The position numbers and the translations under genes are program-made. From the UHGV virus genome UHGV-1359962: 10,965 nucleotides of DNA, one strand, 5' to 3'. Positions 1,379-10,965 of this stretch are shown piece after piece. Positions within the stretch are counted from its first letter, which is position 1; each line of letters opens with the position of its first letter. This DNA comes from a virus. Below the pieces are notes generated by a model that made no database searches, had not been told where the DNA came from, and saw nothing but the letters and a program-made list of their open reading frames with translations.

Positions 1379-2167
1379 TCAATATCTCTTGTTCGGATTC
1401 ACTGAGTACTTTTTAAGCTTTGAAGCTACCCGACCAGCGTTACTATTAGCATTGGTGACGTTGGTTTTTTCAGCTTCTGTTAAGTCTGAATAGTCCAGCT
1501 TCCAAGCCTTATTACATTTAATCTGAGCATCGAGAATATCATTTCTGATAGCTGGAGCGTAACCGGATACATCGCTAATATCCATTAGCTCTTTGCACGA
1601 TAGCATAGGCGCGTTATTGCGTTCAGTGGTCACGTTACCTGCATTCTTCTTACTGGTCACACCACCGTCATTAGTGGTAGCCGTTTTGCCAGTGGCAGCC
1701 GAAATATCAGTTTGCCCCACAATAGCTTTAAAGTTAATTTCCTGAAAAGTTAGCTGGATTCTCAGGCCGTTTGAAATACCAACATCTTTTGAGGCTTTAA
1801 AGCTCGTAATAATGGAATCATCAATTTTAATCCCATCTTTACAGATGACAGAAATAATCTGCTTCTGGTCACGCCAGTTTTCAAGGGTTTCGATGAAGTT
1901 TTCTACTAATTGACCCTGACGAGTTAATAATAAGCTTCCTTCATAGCCAACTACAACGACACCACTAATAGTGATTGTTCTGGGTGCTCTTTGCACATTA
2001 TCTGTGACAGTTTGCCCTGATTGCATGTTCTGTGTAGTCACCTGCATAGGACTATCAAATTCCATGTTTTCAGTTGCTGATAAGGTTAAGAAGGCATCTA
2101 CATTATCTCTTAAGTGGAAATAGATGCCATCTTTGCCACTGTAACGAATCTGATTAGAGTAAATCAT
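1379..2167 (-). CDS. Hypothetical protein, 262 aa, immediately downstream of the tape-measure-like gene; tail-associated role is possible only by position
   Basis: ATG at 2167-2165 preceded by AAGGAG (complement of 2174-2179) with 6-nt spacing. The ORF-track start at 2188 is a TTG and is less likely. Stop TGA at 1381-1379. No recognisable domain; the sequence has a hydrophobic beta-like stretch ([18 protein letters not shown]) and a Thr/Asn/Gly-rich segment. Confidence 0.6.
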
Positions 2168-2242
2168 TAAATTCTCCTTTGATTTCAAAGGCTTAGTGTA
2201 TTTTAATCATTTTTAACCAAGCCTTTGATATATAAGTATTTT

Positions 2243-2289
2243 CTCTGTTAAGCGTGAGCTACGTAAATTCTATTTTTCAGTGCGGGTAT
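2243..2289. promoter_or_regulatory. Conserved ~45-bp element (CTCTGTTAAGCGTGAGCTACGTAAA ... GGGTAT), copy upstream of the 262-aa gene
   Basis: 25-nt block identical to 4519-4543, followed by a similar ATTTTT..GGGTAT tail. Lies in the 135-bp gap between the TMP-like gene stop (2324) and the 262-aa gene start (2167). Confidence 0.45.
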
Positions 2290-2323
2290 TAACTTTGCTT
2301 TATTCACGTAGAACACCGTTAAA

Positions 2324-4504
2324 TCAATCATCTTCTGGGAATGATGAACTTAATAACGTAGCTTCTGCATATTGGTCGTAGATATTACTGCTAAAGGTCA
2401 TAAAGCTGGTTTCATCTGGTTTAATGGCAACTTCACCACCAAGTGAAACTTTCACAGGCTCCTGAATACGCTTACTTAAAGCAGAGATTTCATCCCTCAG
2501 ACCCTGAATATCTGCACTCGTTAATGATGCATCTTGTTTCATGGTAATTAATTCTGGATGATTGAATCTTGCAATATTCATTGTGGCATTGTTAAACAAT
2601 TCACCCATTGAACTAAAAATCCTGCCCCATCCTTCGTTAATCATATTCGGTTTATTAGGGTCACCAGAATACACAGGATTAAAGTCACTACCCACACCTA
2701 CCCCAGATGGATGCATATTAGCGTTTTTGACTACTTCCTGATTCATAAAATCCAGTGCTTTCTTCAATGCATATAAACCAAGAGTGACACCTCTGATTTG
2801 TGGAATCATTGAAGCTAATGCTAACGCTGTTTCATAACCGTCATCAGCATAACCAATTGCAAGAGCACTACCTACACCACCAGCTACACCTTTCAGTTTT
2901 CCACCACCTTTACCAGTAGCTACCTGACCAGCCACCTGATTAGCTCTTGTACCTAACGTTGTGATTGCTCTTGTCAGGTTCATAACCCCTGTAGTAGCAC
3001 TGAATAGTGTCTTTGCAGATAACGCTATAGCAAGACCTTTGACAAAATTGATAAAACCATCACCGACTTCATCAAGTAGTTTTCGTTTAGTGTCATCAAG
3101 GCTGTAATAGAACTTCTTAGTCTGTAGAATCCAGCCTTCAAGGTGATTGTTAAAGATACGGATGTCATCTACACCAGCTTTAAGCATGTCGATAAGTCCA
3201 CCGATAGCATCACCAGCGATAGAAGAACTCATACCCATTTCACTAAGCAGGTTACTCAGGCTGGATAAGAAGCCGTTTAGCTCATCCTGTGAACCTGAGA
3301 AGATTTTCACCATCGTATCATCCCAGTTGTTAGCCAGTTTCCCTAAAGCTGTCTGAGTGCTCTTAGCGACTTCAGCCCAGCCACCCGCTTTATCAATCAT
3401 CAAGCCCATCTGTTTAGCGACTTTAGGGAGAGTATCACTACTTAAAATCTTCCCGTTTTTCATGGCTGCATCAAGCTCTGTAGCAGTCATACCCAGTGCT
3501 TCAGCGAATAGCTTAAATGCACCAGCCATACGGTCACCTAACTGTCCACGAAGCTCTTCAGCCTGAATCTTGCCCTTAGAAGCCATCTGCTCAAAAGCTT
3601 TCAAAATGCCGTTTAGCTCGTCGTTAGAAAGCCCCATTAAGCGACTCATAGCCGTTGCATTACCAAATAGTTCCTGTGTCTGTTCCTGTGACATAGAACC
3701 CTGAGCACCTGCTGCAAACTTAGCGTAGCTTGACAGCCCTTCAGAGATATTAAGACCTGTCTTGTCTGCTAAATTTCGAATAAATACCTCAGCCTCAGAT
3801 GCTTTATCACCAAGTACAAACTTAGCGGCTCTCTGTGCGGAATCTCGTTTAAGACCTGCATTCATAATGGCCTTGTAAGCGTTAAGAGCACCCATCACAG
3901 AGTAAAATGCACCAGATAATTTAATTGCATTGCTTGCAAGATTATTAAATGCGTCGCTTGTATTATTAATGCTGGTGGTCTTTGTCTGTGACCTGAGTTT
4001 ATTCAACGTTTCACGAAGAGATTGATTTAATTTTGCAAGTTCAGCGTTAAACTTTTCACTTCCAATATTACCAGCCTTGCCGCTTAAACTGTAATATTGT
4101 GCTTTAAACATTTTAGCCATCAGCGGATTAATATCACCAAGCTTAGACATATTCACACTATGCGCTGCTGTGATTGCTCTGTTTCCGCTAATTCGTGGCT
4201 GTCTTGGTTGTTTTGGAGGATTGATAACGTCATTAACCTGACTTGTGAAACGGAAAACTCTAGTGTTTTTTGCTCTAGCTTCCAGACGGTCAAAGGTCTT
4301 ATTAAACTTCCTTTCAAGTTGCCCTAAAGAACTTGTCAGATTGCTGTCAAGTTGCTTGGTATCGACCTTAAACGCTCTATTCAAATTACGTTCAATTCTT
4401 TGTGCTGACTGCAAAGCTGCCTTTTCAACTCTTTGCAAGCCCTTAATAACGTTCTCGCTGAAGCCTAGCTCAACGATAAAACTATCAACTTTAAATTGTG
4501 CCAT
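2324..4504 (-). CDS. Phage tail tape-measure-like protein, 726 aa
   Basis: Long ORF, ATG at 4504-4502, stop TGA at 2326-2324. Predicted helical N-terminal half. The segment MSRLMGLSNDELNGILKAFEQMASKGKIQAEELRGQLGDRMAGAFKLFAEALGMTATELDAAMKNGKILSSDTLPKVAKQM resembles the conserved tape-measure domain as I recall it, and Gly-rich hydrophobic stretches (GQVATGKGGGKLKGVAGGVGSALAIGYADDG) are typical of TMPs. The SD-like GAGGTG lies 11 nt upstream of the ATG, so the exact start is uncertain. Confidence 0.75.
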   Translation of the reverse strand: MAQFKVDSFIVELGFSENVIKGLQRVEKAALQSAQRIERNLNRAFKVDTKQLDSNLTSSLGQLERKFNKTFDRLEARAKNTRVFRFTSQVNDVINPPKQPRQPRISGNRAITAAHSVNMSKLGDINPLMAKMFKAQYYSLSGKAGNIGSEKFNAELAKLNQSLRETLNKLRSQTKTTSINNTSDAFNNLASNAIKLSGAFYSVMGALNAYKAIMNAGLKRDSAQRAAKFVLGDKASEAEVFIRNLADKTGLNISEGLSSYAKFAAGAQGSMSQEQTQELFGNATAMSRLMGLSNDELNGILKAFEQMASKGKIQAEELRGQLGDRMAGAFKLFAEALGMTATELDAAMKNGKILSSDTLPKVAKQMGLMIDKAGGWAEVAKSTQTALGKLANNWDDTMVKIFSGSQDELNGFLSSLSNLLSEMGMSSSIAGDAIGGLIDMLKAGVDDIRIFNNHLEGWILQTKKFYYSLDDTKRKLLDEVGDGFINFVKGLAIALSAKTLFSATTGVMNLTRAITTLGTRANQVAGQVATGKGGGKLKGVAGGVGSALAIGYADDGYETALALASMIPQIRGVTLGLYALKKALDFMNQEVVKNANMHPSGVGVGSDFNPVYSGDPNKPNMINEGWGRIFSSMGELFNNATMNIARFNHPELITMKQDASLTSADIQGLRDEISALSKRIQEPVKVSLGGEVAIKPDETSFMTFSSNIYDQYAEATLLSSSFPEDD

Positions 4505-4518
4505 TGTTCATATTTCAC

Positions 4519-4563
4519 CTCTGTTAAGCGTGAGCTACGTAAAAAATAATTTTTGGTGGGTAT
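4519..4563. promoter_or_regulatory. Conserved ~45-bp element, copy abutting the RBS of the TMP-like gene
   Basis: CTCTGTTAAGCGTGAGCTACGTAAA at 4519-4543 is identical to 2243-2267, and the tail ATTTTTGGTGGGTAT matches ATTTTTCAGTGCGGGTAT. It ends 14 nt from the TMP start codon. Confidence 0.45.
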
Positions 4564-4595
4564 ATCTGTTCAGAAGATTTCACGTAGCACACATA

Positions 4596-4638
4596 CAAAA
4601 AAGGGAGAAACTACCGAATAATATCGATAATCTCTCCC
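4596..4638 (-). terminator. Candidate rho-independent terminator (minus strand) after the 71-aa gene
   Basis: On the minus strand GGGAGAGA (complement of 4638-4631) pairs with TTTCTCCC (complement of 4610-4603) around a 20-nt loop, followed by TTTTTTGT (complement of 4602-4595). The loop is long, so the call is tentative. Confidence 0.4.
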
Positions 4639-4686
4639 CGTGTTATAGATTCGATAGAACCTATCTCATACACCCAACCAATTCTT

Positions 4687-5629: not shown

Positions 5630-5877
5630 TAATATTTTCCTCTTCTAAGATAATTTATGTTTCAGTTTTTAAAAAGCACACCTGACAGCCTACGAACTTA
5701 GAAGAGACTTAAAAGCGTTTGCCAAGTATGCTTTTTAAAAGCTGAAAAAAGCCCTAAACATAGGTGATTCGGATATTCATGGAATCATCCTCATCTGTGA
5801 AGGGCTTTGAAGGTTTGCTTTAACGTTAACGAAGTTTCAGGAAAAACTTTCTTTAAAAGCTCTGTTTAAAAACTCTT

Positions 5878-5907
5878 AAAGAAAACGCCCTAATCATGAG
5901 TTAGGGC
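5878..5907 (-). terminator. Rho-independent terminator (minus strand) downstream of the small-gene operon
   Basis: 7-bp stem GCCCTAA (5887-5893) / TTAGGGC (5901-5907) with a 7-nt loop. On the minus strand the hairpin is followed by GTTTTCTTT (complement of 5886-5878). Confidence 0.5.
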
Positions 5908-6208
5908 AAAGCTGTAAGGGTTCAATAATGAATGATTAAGCACTTTTTGATATATAGCCTATCTAGTGGGCTAAATAGGCCATGTAGCGAAAAGCATTGC
6001 ACCTTTCAGAATAACTATCCCTAGATGTAGATGGAATTGTTGAAAGAAATAAGAGAGAATTGCTCTCCCATACTTAAAATTATGGCATATTTAAGGTTAT
6101 TTGTCAACAGCTTTTTAACAGATTGGTAACATTAATTCTTATTTACCGTGTTACCTACCCAGCAACCAACAAATAAACCCAAAGCTGTCCAAGCAATTAT
6201 TAAGCCCA

Positions 6209-6550: not shown

Positions 6551-6673
6551 ACCAGACCTCCTCAATCGCTCTGTAACGAGCTAAACAGTCTTTTTCAGGG
6601 GTAGCCTGTACAGTGGTATTACCCACCCTAAAATAAGGTAGTTTTTTGCGTTAGAATGCGATTGAGAGCGTCT
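6551..6673. repeat. Copy 1 of a ~100-120 bp paired element with conserved 19-nt and 21-nt end blocks
   Basis: TCAATCGCTCTGTAACGAG at 6562-6580 and AGAATGCGATTGAGAGCGTCT at 6653-6673 are identical to 8230-8248 and 8298-8318. The interior is similar but diverged. Lies in the gap between the HNH-like gene and the 107-aa gene. Confidence 0.6.
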
Positions 6674-6687
6674 GAGAAGCTGTTTTT

Positions 6688-6975
6688 CTAATTTCTCTTA
6701 AAGTCTCGGACTTGCATAAGATTTTTTGGTCTGGTATCGGCTCTGTTACCATTTCGATGGATAATTTGCTTGTTGGATTGATAGCCATGATAAAGGAACC
6801 AGACAACATATTTCACGTAGAAAGTATATCGGCCTATATTAAATGTTTTGTTGCCGTAGTCGTCGGTATTTATCGTGACTGACTCTCCATCAGACCAGTA
6901 CAGGGAATCACTGGATTCATCATAGATAAGGTGTTCTGTAAAATATCGTCTAACATCTTCATGCCAAGGTTTCAT
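6688..6975 (-). CDS. HNH_3-like (homing-endonuclease-type HNH) small protein, 95 aa
   Basis: ATG at 6975-6973 with strong GGAGG 4-5 nt upstream. Motifs LIYDESSDSLYWSDGESV and IHRNGNRADTRPKNL resemble the HNH_3-type nuclease signature (His ... GN ... N-L) as I recall it. Shorter than typical members. Its start overlaps the upstream gene stop (ATGA). Confidence 0.55.
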   Translation of the reverse strand: MKPWHEDVRRYFTEHLIYDESSDSLYWSDGESVTINTDDYGNKTFNIGRYTFYVKYVVWFLYHGYQSNKQIIHRNGNRADTRPKNLMQVRDFKRN

Positions 6976-8071: not shown

Positions 8072-8100
8072 ATACTAGCATTTTCAAAGACTAATGTCAA
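8072..8100 (-). promoter_or_regulatory. Candidate sigma70-type promoter for the minus-strand operon
   Basis: On the minus strand: -35 TTGACA (complement of 8100-8095), 17-nt spacer, -10 TAGTAT (complement of 8077-8072). Confidence 0.5.
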
Positions 8101-8107
8101 GCATTTT

Positions 8108-8137
8108 TTAACATTTCATTAACATCTGTGGTATAAT
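8108..8137 (+). promoter_or_regulatory. Candidate plus-strand promoter with extended -10, divergent from the operon promoter
   Basis: -35-like TTAACA (8108-8113), 18-nt spacer, TG at 8129-8130 and -10 TATAAT at 8132-8137 (TGgTATAAT). Confidence 0.55.
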
Positions 8138-8219: not shown

Positions 8220-8318
8220 ACAGACCTCTTCAATCGCTCTGTAACGAGTTAAATGGCCTCTTCAGGTCAACTCATAAGGTCAGGTACTTTTTGTGTCAGA
8301 ATGCGATTGAGAGCGTCT
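8220..8318. repeat. Copy 2 of the paired element, within the leader of the membrane-protein gene
   Basis: Blocks at 8230-8248 and 8298-8318 are identical to copy 1. Located between the plus-strand promoter and the ATG at 8333. Confidence 0.6.
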
Positions 8319-8332
8319 TACAAGGAAATTTA

Positions 8333-8521
8333 ATGGTAAATCTCCCTCCTGAACTGGGGTCACCTGATGTATGGGCTGGTGGAGGTGTTGGACTTATTGC
8401 GGGTCTGCTGCTTCGCTATTTCATCGTCAGAGTGTTTATCGTGTTCAGATTGTTTGGTCGTGAATGGTCGTTTGACCTCAAGGACAGGACCAGAACAGAC
8501 AACCACACAGAACCCCGCTAA
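8333..8521 (+). CDS. Small membrane protein, 62 aa, one predicted transmembrane helix
   Basis: ATG at 8333 with AAGGA 6 nt upstream; stop TAA at 8519-8521. Translation MVNLPPELGSPDVWAGGGVGLIAGLLLRYFIVRVFIVFRLFGREWSFDLKDRTRTDNHTEPR has one hydrophobic helix followed by a charged C-terminus. Preferred over the alternative frames at 8291 and 8367 because of the RBS and protein-like composition. Confidence 0.5.
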   Translation: MVNLPPELGSPDVWAGGGVGLIAGLLLRYFIVRVFIVFRLFGREWSFDLKDRTRTDNHTEPR

Positions 8522-8534
8522 ACTCCCTTCAAAA

Positions 8535-8575
8535 CCCCTATACCATCTCGTACAGGGGTATCTTTAGCATTTTGT
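8535..8575 (+). terminator. Candidate terminator after the membrane-protein gene
   Basis: Stem CCCCTATAC (8535-8543) / GTACAGGGG (8550-8558) with one mismatch, then a T-rich tail TATCTTTAGCATTTTGTG. Confidence 0.35.
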
Positions 8576-8635
8576 GCTATCTATTAAAAAACGGCTTGAC
8601 AGAACCGGAAAGCTGTATCTATCAAGTATTCACCT

Positions 8636-8816
8636 CTCTGACAGTAATTTCTAAAAGTTCTTATTTTTCAATGAGTTGTAATTAGCCAATATAAAGGACT
8701 GACAAGACCCTTCACAATTAACTCTGTAACCTTAACAGTAATTTCTAAAAATGCTTATTTTTCAATAAGTTGTAATCACCCAATATATAAGACTGTCCAG
8801 TACCTTCACAGATAAC
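8636..8816. repeat. Two tandem direct repeat units of about 86 and 95 bp
   Basis: Unit 1 (8636-8721) and unit 2 (8722-8816) align along their length. Shared blocks include CAGTAATTTCTAAAA, CTTATTTTTCAAT, AGTTGTAAT and GACTG.C.AG..CCTTCACA..TAAC. Confidence 0.7.
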
Positions 8817-9603
8817 TTCAAGCCCTCTTAACCGCCCCACTAATCGGGAGAAGAGCGATAACCCCAGAGAGGGAAGCTCCCTTCTTAATCGGCCTCCTAA
8901 CCAGTCTTTACAAACCTTGTTCAAGGTAATCACAATAGTTTTTCTTCCCTCGGTTTCCTGTGTTCCTCGGTTTATCTATTGAGACTTGAAAGACCTCTGT
9001 AAGTGCTCTCTTAGCGAGAGAAAAATCATTCATAGTGACCCCAAGCGAAGTGCCCCTCTAAAAAGATTTTTTAGCTATTTTGCTTAAAACCATATCAAAC
9101 GATACATTTTATTGATTTAGGTCAAAGACAAAAACATTGACAAAATGGTATGATTGTTCACATGACCTTACTTAACAGATTCTTAAGAGCTTTGAAACGA
9201 CCTACTTAACAAGGTCACTACCTCTGGTCTTATCGTTCCCTTCTTTCTAGGTAGTCATCTGTTAAGAACTTTTCAGTTTTATTCTTAAGATAATTGTTAA
9301 GATGATACTCTCCCTTCGGGTTATATCGTATCTCTTCCCCCGTTAAACACTCCTTCCTAACAACTTCATAGTTATCTGTCAAGTACCTTTGAAGATTCTA
9401 TCAAGACCTCTAAATCTGACCTGATATAGATGCTGTGAAGGCATGTTCTCTAGGTCTGTGTAGCTTACTTAGTGGGAAGAGAGGGTGATACATGAGAAAG
9501 AACCCCTCCTACTTAAAAGAATTATTTGACATTATTGTGATGGTTATTTAAGATGCAACTGTACAGACACCTTCATCGGTTTCTCTACACCTTCCTATGG
9601 CTT

Positions 9604-9664
9604 GGTCTGGCTAGGTAGGGTGGGGTCTGGTTAGGTAAGGTGGGGTATGGTTAAGTGTGGGTGG
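9604..9664. repeat. Three tandem ~20-bp iterons
   Basis: GGTCTGGCTAGGTAGGGTGG (9604-9623), GGTCTGGTTAGGTAAGGTGG (9624-9643), GGTATGGTTAAGTGTGGGTGG (9644-9664). Confidence 0.75.
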
Positions 9665-9696
9665 ATTGTCGTAGCCACGTTAAAAATCGACTTATA

Positions 9697-9720
9697 GGGA
9701 CTCTTTCGGGAGTCCTTTTT
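9697..9720 (+). terminator. Rho-independent-type terminator hairpin with UUCG loop
   Basis: GGACTCT (9698-9704) pairs with GGAGTCC (9709-9715) around the loop TTCG (9705-9708), followed by TTTTT (9716-9720). Confidence 0.55.
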
Positions 9721-10791
9721 AGTTTGTATAAAATCTGTACAGTAACTTTTCAGATTCTGAAAATTTTTATAAAAAAATAATCAGGCCTCTTCTAAGTCTC
9801 TTCAACCAAATCTTTCAAAAATATCTACACTCAATTGATGGCTGTTAAGTACCCCAGATTCACGATATAGCACCCCCTTTGCAAAAGCAGTTAAAATATC
9901 TATAACCAACTATTGACTTTCTTCATAGCATCTGTTAAGTCCACCTCAAGAAACCTTCATCACACTTCAAAGCATCTATCAAGAAGGTTTAACCTATCAA
10001 TAGCTGTAACATTTTGTAGTTCTGTGAAGTCCTATCCAGTTTTCTCTGTAACAGACACAAACTTCTGCGACCTTATGTATCAATGACTTAGAATACATGC
10101 TCTCAAGGTTCTGTATAGTCTCTTATCTTCAAATACACAAAACCCTTATAAATCAGTACTGATACGTATACAGTTCGTTTTTAACATAATGGCTGTTTTA
10201 CGCACTAATCGTGTTCTACATGAAATCTGTATAGATATTAAGGTGTCTGTAAGTGATTTTTTAAGAAGGGACTACGAAGATTTGACAAGGTAACTATGAG
10301 GTTGATTCCTAGAACAACCGAATCAACTATAACCATCACTTTTCAATATTCACGCAGGATATCGTTAAGTTTCTTGATAGTTACACCATGTGACCAACTG
10401 CATAGATAGCGTTATATACTCCTGTATATATCACTTTTCTAGGAGTCTGGAGAGGGACGACTAACACGATACAGTTTACCCTGAAAAGAGACTTCACAGA
10501 TTCTTTATATATTTCAATAAGTTATGCTAAAAAGAGACTATACCGATACTGCATAGAATCTGTGTAAAACTGCTTAGATACTTGGGAAAATGCCTTTAAA
10601 TTGCATAGTCATAGGGGTTGGAACAAGCCCAACTTCACCTGATATTGTCCTGTAATTAACAGGTTTCTTAGAAAACCGAATAGACTTCATTCAAGGGTCA
10701 TTGTATTGTAGCTATTCGGCATTGTAGCATTAGCCATAACGTTTATAAGTTCATCTTTAAATGATAATCAATTGCATGGGAGTTTATCACC

Positions 10792-10965
10792 ATGAGACAC
10801 GTAATTACATACCTTCGGTACAGTTCAGCCATACAAGGCGCTGAAGGTGCTGATTCAACCAGACGACAAAATGAGCTATTCAAACAGTGGTTAAGGAAGA
10901 ATAGCGATGCTCAGGTAGTTGCGTCTTTCAGTGATGAAGGGTTGAGTGGTTACAAAGGTAAGCAC
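10792..10965 (+). CDS. Serine recombinase N-terminal catalytic segment (58 codons); 3' end runs off the window end; probably the same gene as 1-1347
   Basis: ATG at 10792 preceded by GGGAG (10779-10783). Translation MRHVITYLRYSSAIQGAEGADSTRRQNELFKQWLRKNSDAQVVASFSDEGLSGYKGKH carries the serine-recombinase N-terminal signature (Y-x-R-x-SS-x-x-Q with the presumed catalytic Ser, later D-x-G-x-SG). The frame ends exactly on a codon boundary at 10965. Confidence 0.7.
   Translation, partial: MRHVITYLRYSSAIQGAEGADSTRRQNELFKQWLRKNSDAQVVASFSDEGLSGYKGKH

What the first reader, a model, noticed from the sequence alone, without database searches (positions are those of the whole stretch)
2243..4563. Near-identical ~45-bp element upstream of both the TMP-like gene and the 262-aa gene
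CTCTGTTAAGCGTGAGCTACGTAAA occurs identically at 2243-2267 and 4519-4543, each followed by a similar ATTTTT..(G)GGTAT tail. Both copies lie upstream of consecutive minus-strand genes, and the TMP copy ends 14 nt from the start codon. The core contains a near-palindrome (GTGAGCTAC). A sequence conserved this exactly between two intergenic regions suggests a shared regulatory site, for example a late-type promoter or activator site, possibly helper-dependent, or a leader RNA element.
Basis: seen in the sequence. Interest (0 to 1): 0.55.

Follow-up and report, generated by a model that had tools for sequence, protein, structure and literature searches.

The report
Conserved control cassette before stolen tail genes
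The repeated 25-mer is real and is the core of a 74-base cassette that a family of small E. coli elements, which carry tail genes copied from Felix O1-like phages, keeps just upstream of those genes; it most likely acts as a regulated promoter/operator, but this has not been tested.

Summary
CTCTGTTAAGCGTGAGCTACGTAAA occurs exactly twice, with none expected by chance. The repeat is longer than reported: a 74-nt unit at 4519-4592 and 2243-2316, sense on the minus strand.

Each unit has two inverted arms, GCTACGTGAA and TTYACGTAGC. Their ACGT cores lie exactly 45 bp apart. Between them is an A/T-rich segment with a fixed-register TAnnnT hexamer, followed by a near-invariant AGCTCACGCTTAA.

The window is an excised 10,965-bp circle. 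It carries a serine integrase, and its attP overlaps the tonB start codon. Its tape-measure (TMP) and Dit-like genes are about 90-95% identical in DNA to Felixounavirus phages. Related elements match in 549 of 5,426 complete E. coli genomes.

The cassette precedes Dit in 27 of 27 loci and TMP in 16 of 25. It stays about 85-100% identical while TMP alleles fall to 38% and Dit alleles to 59% amino-acid identity. Copy A begins 5 nt after an intrinsic terminator.

There is no RNA covariation, no Rfam match and no copy in the phage genome checked. The best reading is a weak sigma-70-type promoter that needs or is controlled by a factor bound at the arms (confidence about 0.45). Helper dependence is untested.

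The parts
4519..4592 (-). Cassette copy A, directly upstream of the TMP Shine-Dalgarno sequence (74 nt, read 4592 to 4519)
   Evidence: Many BLAST hits in other E. coli genomes end exactly at these borders.
2243..2316 (-). Cassette copy B, between the TMP stop codon and the Dit-like gene (74 nt, read 2316 to 2243)
   Evidence: A copy sits at this position in 27 of 27 family loci that include the Dit start.
4578..4592 (-). Left arm of copy A, GTGTGCTACGTGAAA (invariant core CTACGTGA at 4580-4587). Predicted position about -55 to -41.
4529..4543 (-). Right arm of copy A, TTTACGTAGCTCACG (core TTTACGTAG at 4535-4543). It overlaps the predicted transcription start at 4536.
   Evidence: Both arms are invariant across the family, and the ACGT-to-ACGT spacing is 45 bp in every variant without the insertion.
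4543..4548 (-). Candidate -10 hexamer TATTTT of copy A
   Evidence: T 36/37, A 36/37, three variable positions, T 37/37. One search gives the position.
2267..2272 (-). Candidate -10 hexamer TAGAAT of copy B (predicted +1 at 2260)
   Evidence: It ranks 3rd of 21,838 positions when scored on the -10 element alone.
2304..2311 (-). Left-arm core CTACGTGA of copy B
2259..2267 (-). Right-arm core TTTACGTAG of copy B
4558..4563 (-). Conserved central ATACCC motif of copy A, near the dyad centre. In copy B it is at 2284-2289.
4596..4639 (-). Intrinsic terminator-like hairpin (16 pairs) plus T-run. It ends 5 nt before copy A and separates TMP from the upstream 234-aa and 71-aa genes.
   Evidence: Conserved in relatives.
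2324..4504 (-). Tape measure protein gene (726 aa), copied from a Felixounavirus
1379..2167 (-). Dit-like / 'phage baseplate protein' gene (262 aa), copied from a Felixounavirus
2177..2236 (-). Allele-specific leader hairpin between copy B and the Dit Shine-Dalgarno sequence. It is absent where the cassette abuts the Shine-Dalgarno sequence directly.
   Evidence: Inverted repeat I10; fold (box 3 at -100 versus -38/-39).

Best explanation
The 25-mer is the downstream part of a portable 74-nt promoter/operator cassette. The element places one cassette in front of each tail gene it has copied from its phage.

Inferred working: host RNA polymerase uses the TAnnnT hexamer as a -10 element and starts at about 4536 (copy A) and 2260 (copy B). 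There is no usable -35, so the promoter is weak on its own. A sequence-specific DNA-binding factor recognises the two inverted arms (GCTACGTGAA at about -47, TTYACGTAGC over the start site). It either activates the promoter or keeps it shut until infection. Whether that factor comes from the satellite, the phage or the host is unknown. The invariant AGCTCACGCTTAA would then form the first bases of a 28-36-nt leader that runs into the ribosome-binding site.

Shown: the anatomy, the conservation, the fixed spacing, the placement after a terminator, and the independence from the cargo allele. Inferred: transcription initiation, the factor, and any dependence on infection.
For: 1. The repeat is exact and non-random.
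2. Across 37 distinct copies, the predicted -12 T (36/37), -11 A (36/37) and -7 T (37/37) are fixed. Positions -10 to -8 vary freely (TATTTT, TAGAAT, TAGATT, TAGTTT, TAATTT), as expected for a sigma-70 -10 element.
3. Copy A starts 5 nt after a 16-pair terminator with a T-run, so a new transcription start is plausible there.
4. Box 3 sits 32-40 nt from the start codon wherever the cassette abuts the Shine-Dalgarno sequence, and orientation toward the gene is constant.
5. Arm spacing is exactly 45 bp in all variants, including the most diverged copy (L150), even though the middle segment differs by compensating indels. That points to a geometric constraint at the DNA level.
6. Arm cores never vary, and flanking pairs break without compensation. 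This favours sequence-specific protein recognition over an RNA helix.
7. The cassette stays about 85-100% identical while TMP alleles drop to 38% and Dit alleles to 59% amino-acid identity. It precedes Dit in 27 of 27 loci.
8. In the phage, TMP and the Dit-like gene overlap with no intergenic space, and homology to the phage starts at the TMP ATG. The cassette is therefore a satellite-specific addition.
9. Elsewhere the element has canonical strong sigma-70 promoters (13.4 and 13.3 bits), so the tail genes have a distinct, non-canonical control region.
Against: No -35 element is conserved. TGAACA at 18 bp occurs in 21 of 37 copies; the rest have nothing similar. The weight-matrix score is ordinary, ranking 471st and 779th of 21,838 positions.

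T at -7 is also part of the right arm, so the -10 signature is not fully independent of the arms. The most diverged copy (L150 B) has GTGTAT in place of TAnnnT.

Nine of 25 loci lack the TMP copy, with the terminator running straight into the Shine-Dalgarno sequence and the TMP ORF intact. TMP can therefore be expressed without it, presumably by read-through. Three TMP copies carry a 27-bp insertion that moves the left arm out of helical phase.

No arm-binding protein was identified. The 71-aa candidate gave no fold match. No transcript data are available.
Confidence: 0.45

Rival explanations
1. The arms are a DNA site for a protein whose job is not transcription initiation. Examples: a roadblock or nucleoprotein complex tied to replication or packaging, or a conserved 'socket' that promotes recombinational swapping of tail-gene alleles between satellites and phages.
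For: The arm sequence and 45-bp spacing are invariant, with a conserved ATACCC near the dyad centre. Cargo alleles are highly mosaic behind a constant cassette, and hybrid middle segments show recombination or gene conversion between copies. The 3' tail CTTAACAG matches a motif that is over-represented in the element's 2.2-kb non-coding region. The same motif is arrayed in a non-coding region of phage garuso. Extra isolated arm-like sites occur elsewhere in family members.
Against: The arms do not resemble the element's attP. A 33-bp spacer is too long for a tyrosine-recombinase core site and too short for inversion. The strict orientation and fixed distance to the ribosome-binding site are not explained. 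The CTTAACAG tail is lost in the most diverged copies while the arms remain.
Confidence: 0.2
2. The cassette acts as RNA. A 14-pair hairpin with a 33-nt A/U-rich loop in a read-through transcript would serve as a processing, stability or translation-control element just upstream of the ribosome-binding site.
For: Copy A folds better than shuffles (-17.2 kcal/mol, z = -4.4). The T/C polymorphism in the right arm keeps a G-U or G-C pair. Copy B has no terminator upstream, so it is transcribed with TMP. The 27-nt insertion could be tolerated as a nested hairpin.
Against: There is no covariation above shuffled or slid controls. Outer and inner pairs break without compensation. Copy B folds no better than shuffles (z = -1.7). 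Exact loop-length conservation and the TAnnnT pattern are not expected for a loop. No Rfam family matches. Copy A lies downstream of a terminator.
Confidence: 0.12
3. The repeat has little function of its own. It would be a miniature mobile or duplicated segment kept identical by gene conversion between two direct repeats 2.3 kb apart.
For: The unit has sharp borders, and it is present or absent upstream of TMP in two different sequence backgrounds. The TMP copy decays in several lineages by deletion, remnant or insertion. Hybrid variants indicate gene conversion.
Against: The Dit copy is retained in 27 of 27 loci across Escherichia and Citrobacter-type elements, although the flanking genes have diverged to 59% and 38% identity. 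No target-site duplication is seen, and the inverted arms are not terminal. All 693 places found lie on E. coli chromosomes (none on plasmids), and every copy inspected lies in this element family.
Confidence: 0.06
4. The cassette encodes a 22-codon mini-ORF (GTG...TAA) that relays translation from TMP to Dit.
For: The frame is open in most variants, and the 27-nt insertion is in frame and free of stop codons (my reading of the sequences).
Against: There is no Shine-Dalgarno sequence. The conserved ATACCC is read in different frames in different variants, so conservation is at the nucleotide level. L150 B has a stop codon and the L015 copy has a frameshift. The peptide sequences are unrelated between variants.
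Confidence: 0.03

Closest known systems
Activator-dependent late promoters of satellite P4 and helper P2 (Psid/PLL, P2 late promoters; Ogr/Delta), from my own knowledge
   Same: A satellite places similar promoter units in front of morphogenesis-related genes. These units have a usable -10, no good -35, and an upstream site with dyad symmetry for a small activator.
   Different: The P2/P4 site is TGT-N12-ACA centred near -55. Here the symmetry is between two arms 45 bp apart that bracket the core promoter, one of them lying over the start site. There is no Ogr/Delta-like zinc-finger protein, and no sequence similarity.
Phage Mu middle and late promoters (Mor and C activators), from my own knowledge
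   Same: A -10 without a -35. An activator site replaces the -35 region. Several near-identical units control late genes.
   Different: The Mu sites overlap the region from -30 to -55 as a single dyad. No Mor/C homologue was found here.
[quoted passage not shown]
   Same: A small island with a large serine recombinase. It is tied to one group of lytic myophages, is found as an excised circle, and has a long non-coding region with repeats resembling helper sequences.
   Different: No protein homology was tested or seen. The cargo here is copies of the helper's own TMP and Dit-like genes. The host is E. coli and the phage group is Felixounavirus. No PLE counterpart of the cassette is known to me.
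'Putative mobile promoters': near-identical upstream segments in front of unrelated genes (Matus-Garcia and colleagues, from my own knowledge)
   Same: A discrete upstream unit is reused before different genes and alleles.
   Different: Here the unit is confined to one element family and has a defined two-arm architecture.

Membership tests
Sigma-70 promoter | -10 hexamer TAnnnT with conserved T-12, A-11 and T-7 | tested here: met
   36/37, 36/37 and 37/37, with variable inner positions. The exception is L150 B.
Sigma-70 promoter | -35 hexamer resembling TTGACA, 16-18 bp upstream | tested here: not met
   The region is not conserved. The best case is TGAACA at 18 bp in 21 of 37 copies. Weight-matrix ranks are 471 and 779 of 21,838, and the consensus scan did not list the sites.
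Sigma-70 promoter | A mapped transcription start | not testable with these tools
   No transcript data are available.
P2/P4-type late promoter | TGT-N12-ACA dyad near -55 and an Ogr/Delta-like activator | tested here: not met
   The cassette sequences have no such dyad. No zinc-finger activator appears in the Pfam, PHROG or NCBIfam scans.
Phage single-subunit RNA polymerase promoter (T7-like) | The helper encodes such a polymerase, and the same about 20-bp block recurs before helper genes | tested here: not met
   Felix O1 encodes no RNA polymerase (PMC3185647). The block is absent from phage garuso and from the phage collection.
Structured cis-acting RNA | Base pairs kept through compensatory changes | tested here: not met
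   One double change in 168 cells. Covariation is not above the shuffles, and outer pairs break. No Rfam match.
Intrinsic terminator | G+C-rich stem, short loop, U-run | tested here: not met
   The loop is 33 nt and there is no U-run. The scan did not list it.
MITE / IS-derived element | Terminal inverted repeats at both ends and a target-site duplication | tested here: not met
   The right arm is internal, with 11 conserved nt beyond it. Comparison of empty and filled sites shows no duplication.
Attachment site of the element's serine integrase | Similarity to attP around the crossover core | tested here: not met
   The attP core TCAAGGGTCATTG and its flanks do not resemble the arms.
Phage satellite (the element as a whole) | Integrase, an excised circular form, helper-derived sequences, no full virion gene set | tested here: met
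   The integrase ORF is continuous across the window ends, and attP is defined against attL and attR. TMP and Dit are about 88-96% identical in DNA to Felixounavirus. Window 9600-9691 is about 80% identical to a phage non-coding repeat. Only two structural genes are present.
Phage satellite (the element as a whole) | Helper-dependent induction, replication and packaging | not testable with these tools
   This needs infection experiments.

The most novel reading that the evidence does not exclude
The cassette is the infection-responsive 'expression socket' of an undescribed family of satellites that parasitise Felix O1-like phages. A factor binds the two invariant arms and switches on whatever tail-gene allele has been recombined in behind it. 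The satellite could then keep swapping TMP and Dit alleles to match, or sabotage, different helpers without rebuilding its regulation.
Probability: 0.3. Interest if true: 0.7.

Novelty: new member of a known kind. Interest (0 to 1): 0.5.

Why it matters
How Felix O1-like phages time their transcription is unknown (PMC3185647). I also found no description of an element that exploits them. A short, sharply defined and invariant cassette in front of the copied tail genes gives a direct handle. It can be fused to a reporter, mutated at three predicted -10 positions or at the arms, and used as bait to find the protein that reads it. That would show how this widespread island senses phage infection; the island matches in about 10% of complete E. 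coli genomes. It would also show whether its copied tape-measure and baseplate-hub genes serve satellite spread or phage interference.

Tried and rejected
- **Cassette in the helper phage.** I looked for the 25-mer with up to 8 mismatches, sub-motifs, ATACCC-N-TAnnnT, and by blastn of the intergenic region. Nothing was found. CTACGTGA occurs 6 times against about 2.2 expected, in unrelated coding contexts.
- **Degenerate pattern scan of metagenome contigs** (ACGTANNNCACGCTTAA). Only 6 of 120 loci were real copies.
- **Genome-contig scan with the 234-aa protein.** One locus only, from E. albertii.
- **Rfam, tRNA and tmRNA searches.** Nothing relevant.
- **Candidate regulators.** Pfam, NCBIfam and PHROG scans of the small ORFs gave only a weak DndE-like hit for the 92-aa protein. 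The 71-aa protein encoded just upstream of TMP was modelled (pLDDT 75) and searched against the PDB, with no match at E <= 0.001.
- **By-eye comparisons with known sites.** Sigma-32, sigma-E, CRP, NarL, IHF, LexA, SlmA and boxA/nut consensus sequences gave partial matches only, not conserved across variants. These rest on my own knowledge of the consensus sequences, not on a tool.
- **Relation to the second repeat pair** (6553-6679 and 8221-8324). The resemblance is only weak and gapped.
- **Mini-ORF reading.** Rejected (see rival explanations).
- **Literature.** Eight searches found no description of this element family.

Full report
**1. The observation**

CTCTGTTAAGCGTGAGCTACGTAAA occurs at 2243-2267 and 4519-4543 with no mismatch. 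No further match appears at up to 3 mismatches, and 200 dinucleotide-preserving shuffles gave none.
- A 726-aa tape measure protein (TMP) on the minus strand at 2324-4504.
- A 262-aa Dit-like 'baseplate' protein at 1379-2167.

Copy A ends 14 nt before the TMP ATG.

The repeat is longer than reported. In the same register, TTCACGTAG(A/C)ACAC recurs at 2303-2316 and 4579-4592, giving a 74-nt unit. BLAST hits in other genomes often stop exactly at these borders (query 15-88).

**2. Anatomy, read on the minus (sense) strand**

The unit has four parts:
- A left arm, GTGTGCTACGTGAAA.
- A variable A/T-rich middle with a conserved ATACCC, an A-tract and a TAnnnT hexamer.
- A right arm, TT(T/C)ACGTAGCTCAC.
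- A tail, GCTTAACAGAG.

The two arms are inverted repeats.

Over 37 distinct copies the arm cores CTACGTGA and ACGTA are invariant. The hexamer shows T 36/37, A 36/37, three free positions, then T 37/37. The following AGCTCACGCTTAA is nearly invariant. The ACGT-to-ACGT distance is 45 bp in every variant, including the most diverged one. This holds even though the middle segments differ by compensating indels. Only three TMP-side copies carry a 27-bp insertion.

**3. Context**

The window is a complete circle.
- The serine-integrase ORF is continuous across the ends.
- Comparison with integrated relatives defines attP. The core TCAAGGGTCATTG at 10691-10703 overlaps the tonB start codon.

TMP and the Dit-like gene are about 88-96% identical in DNA to Felixounavirus phages. 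In phage garuso the two genes overlap with no intergenic space, and homology begins at the TMP ATG. The cassette is therefore a satellite-specific addition.

Related elements match in 549 of 5,426 complete E. coli genomes, and the cassette occurs in 446 of them at 693 places. More distant relatives occur in Citrobacter and in metagenomes.

A 16-pair terminator with a T-run ends 5 nt before copy A.

**4. Family census**

| Position | Loci with cassette | Notes |
|---|---|---|
| Upstream of Dit | 27 of 27 | every locus that includes the Dit start |
| Upstream of TMP | 16 of 25 | three of these carry the 27-bp insertion |
| Upstream of TMP, lost | 9 of 25 | deleted, or reduced to ACGCTTAACAGAG; the terminator runs straight into the Shine-Dalgarno sequence |

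TMP alleles range from 38 to 100% and Dit alleles from 59 to 100% amino-acid identity to the window. The cassette stays about 85-100% identical throughout. Box 3 lies at -38/-39/-42 from the ATG. In alleles with an extra leader hairpin it lies at -100. Hybrid middle segments show exchange between copies, which helps explain the exact identity within the window.

**5. How it probably works**

The best-supported reading is a regulated promoter/operator cassette.

Support:
- Its position after a terminator.
- The -10-like conservation pattern.
- The fixed 28-36-nt predicted leader.
- The constant orientation.
- The strict arm spacing and arm-sequence invariance, which point to DNA recognition by a protein.
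- The contrast with the element's two canonical strong promoters.

Weaknesses:
- No -35 element, and an ordinary weight-matrix score.
- T at -7 doubles as part of the arm.
- One diverged copy lacks TAnnnT.
- TMP evidently does without the cassette in nine loci.
- No binding protein was identified.

Helper dependence is conjecture. The cassette is absent from the phage, and Felix O1 has no known polymerase or sigma factor. Its temporal control of transcription is unknown (PMC3185647).

**6. Rivals**

- **RNA hairpin.** It folds well for copy A (z = -4.4) but not for copy B (z = -1.7). It shows no covariation and matches no Rfam family.
- **Non-transcriptional DNA site or recombination 'socket'.** This remains possible. 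The CTTAACAG tail belongs to a motif enriched in the element's non-coding region and arrayed in a phage non-coding region. But the arms do not resemble attP.
- **Neutral duplication.** This is hard to square with 27 of 27 retention before Dit.
- **22-codon mini-ORF.** Rejected because conservation is at the nucleotide level and the frame is broken in two variants.

**7. Comparison and novelty**

In function it most resembles the activator-dependent late promoters of P4/P2 and of Mu. It fails their defining sequence features. The element as a whole resembles PLE in lifestyle features only. I found no paper describing this family.

I rate the cassette as a new member of a known kind, a satellite regulatory region. 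The surrounding element is the more novel object.

Noticed in passing
window 10793-10965 joined to 1-1347; attP core 10691-10703: The window is a circular permutation of an excised element. The serine-integrase ORF runs across the ends. The 13-bp core TCAAGGGTCATTG overlaps the tonB start codon, so integration separates tonB from its native upstream region and puts element DNA in its place (attL and attR in L002).
   Followed up: yes
window 9600-9691; L152 2501-2592; phage garuso 5575-5800: G-rich tandem repeats (GGTCTGGTTnGGTAAGGTG...) followed by GGGTGGAT..GTAGCCACGTTAAAAATC are about 80% identical to a non-coding region just downstream of the DNA ligase gene in Felixounavirus phages. This could be a copied replication origin or other helper recognition site.
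   Followed up: partly
window 8500-10750; phage garuso 49400-50300: The element has a 2.2-kb non-coding region rich in CTGTnAAG / CTTnACAG-type octamers (19 in the window against about 1.3 expected). The same motif, CTTAACAG/CTAACAAG, is densely arrayed in a 1.6-kb non-coding region of the phage. The cassette tail CTTAACAGAG carries one copy.
   Followed up: partly
window 6553-6679 and 8221-8324: A second repeat pair of about 125 nt (86-89% identical) forms a long hairpin, CTCAATCGC...GCGATTGAG. One copy lies upstream of the 108-aa gene; the other lies beyond the divergent promoters near 8072-8137. It has only a weak gapped resemblance to the cassette tail (TAGCTCGTTACAGAG).
   Followed up: partly
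window 6049-6107 (minus strand): A near-consensus promoter (TTGACA-17-CATAAT with TG) is followed at once by a terminator-like hairpin. A second hairpin lies at 5886-5908 and a 28-nt-arm inverted repeat at 5660-5747, all before the 234-aa gene. The long structured leader suggests attenuation or antitermination control of the operon that reads toward TMP.
   Followed up: no
window 6812-6822; several family loci: Isolated copies of the arm motif TTCACGTAG / CTACGTGAA occur outside the cassette. They are found in the HNH gene, in some TMP and integrase alleles, and in the right-hand non-coding region (for example L003 13303, GTGTTCTACGTGAAATCTGTATAG). This is more than the roughly 0.1 per element expected.
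   Followed up: partly
L016, L022, L024 (TMP-side copies): A 27-nt insertion (TGATTCGGATAAGAATTATCCTCA plus a repeated TGA), itself a small palindrome, sits right after the left arm in three loci.
   Followed up: partly
L021, L023, L024, L148 versus L002, L003, L022: Family members use at least two integration sites: the tonB start codon and inside the DUF72 gene (yecE). Each site goes with a different integrase allele. Some genomes carry up to five cassette copies, which suggests more than one island per genome.
   Followed up: no
window 8333-8521 (plus strand): A small ORF (62 aa) with a hydrophobic core lies downstream of a strong rightward promoter (8108-8137, TTAACA-18-TATAAT with TG). 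Transcription from this promoter would run into the non-coding repeat region.
   Followed up: no
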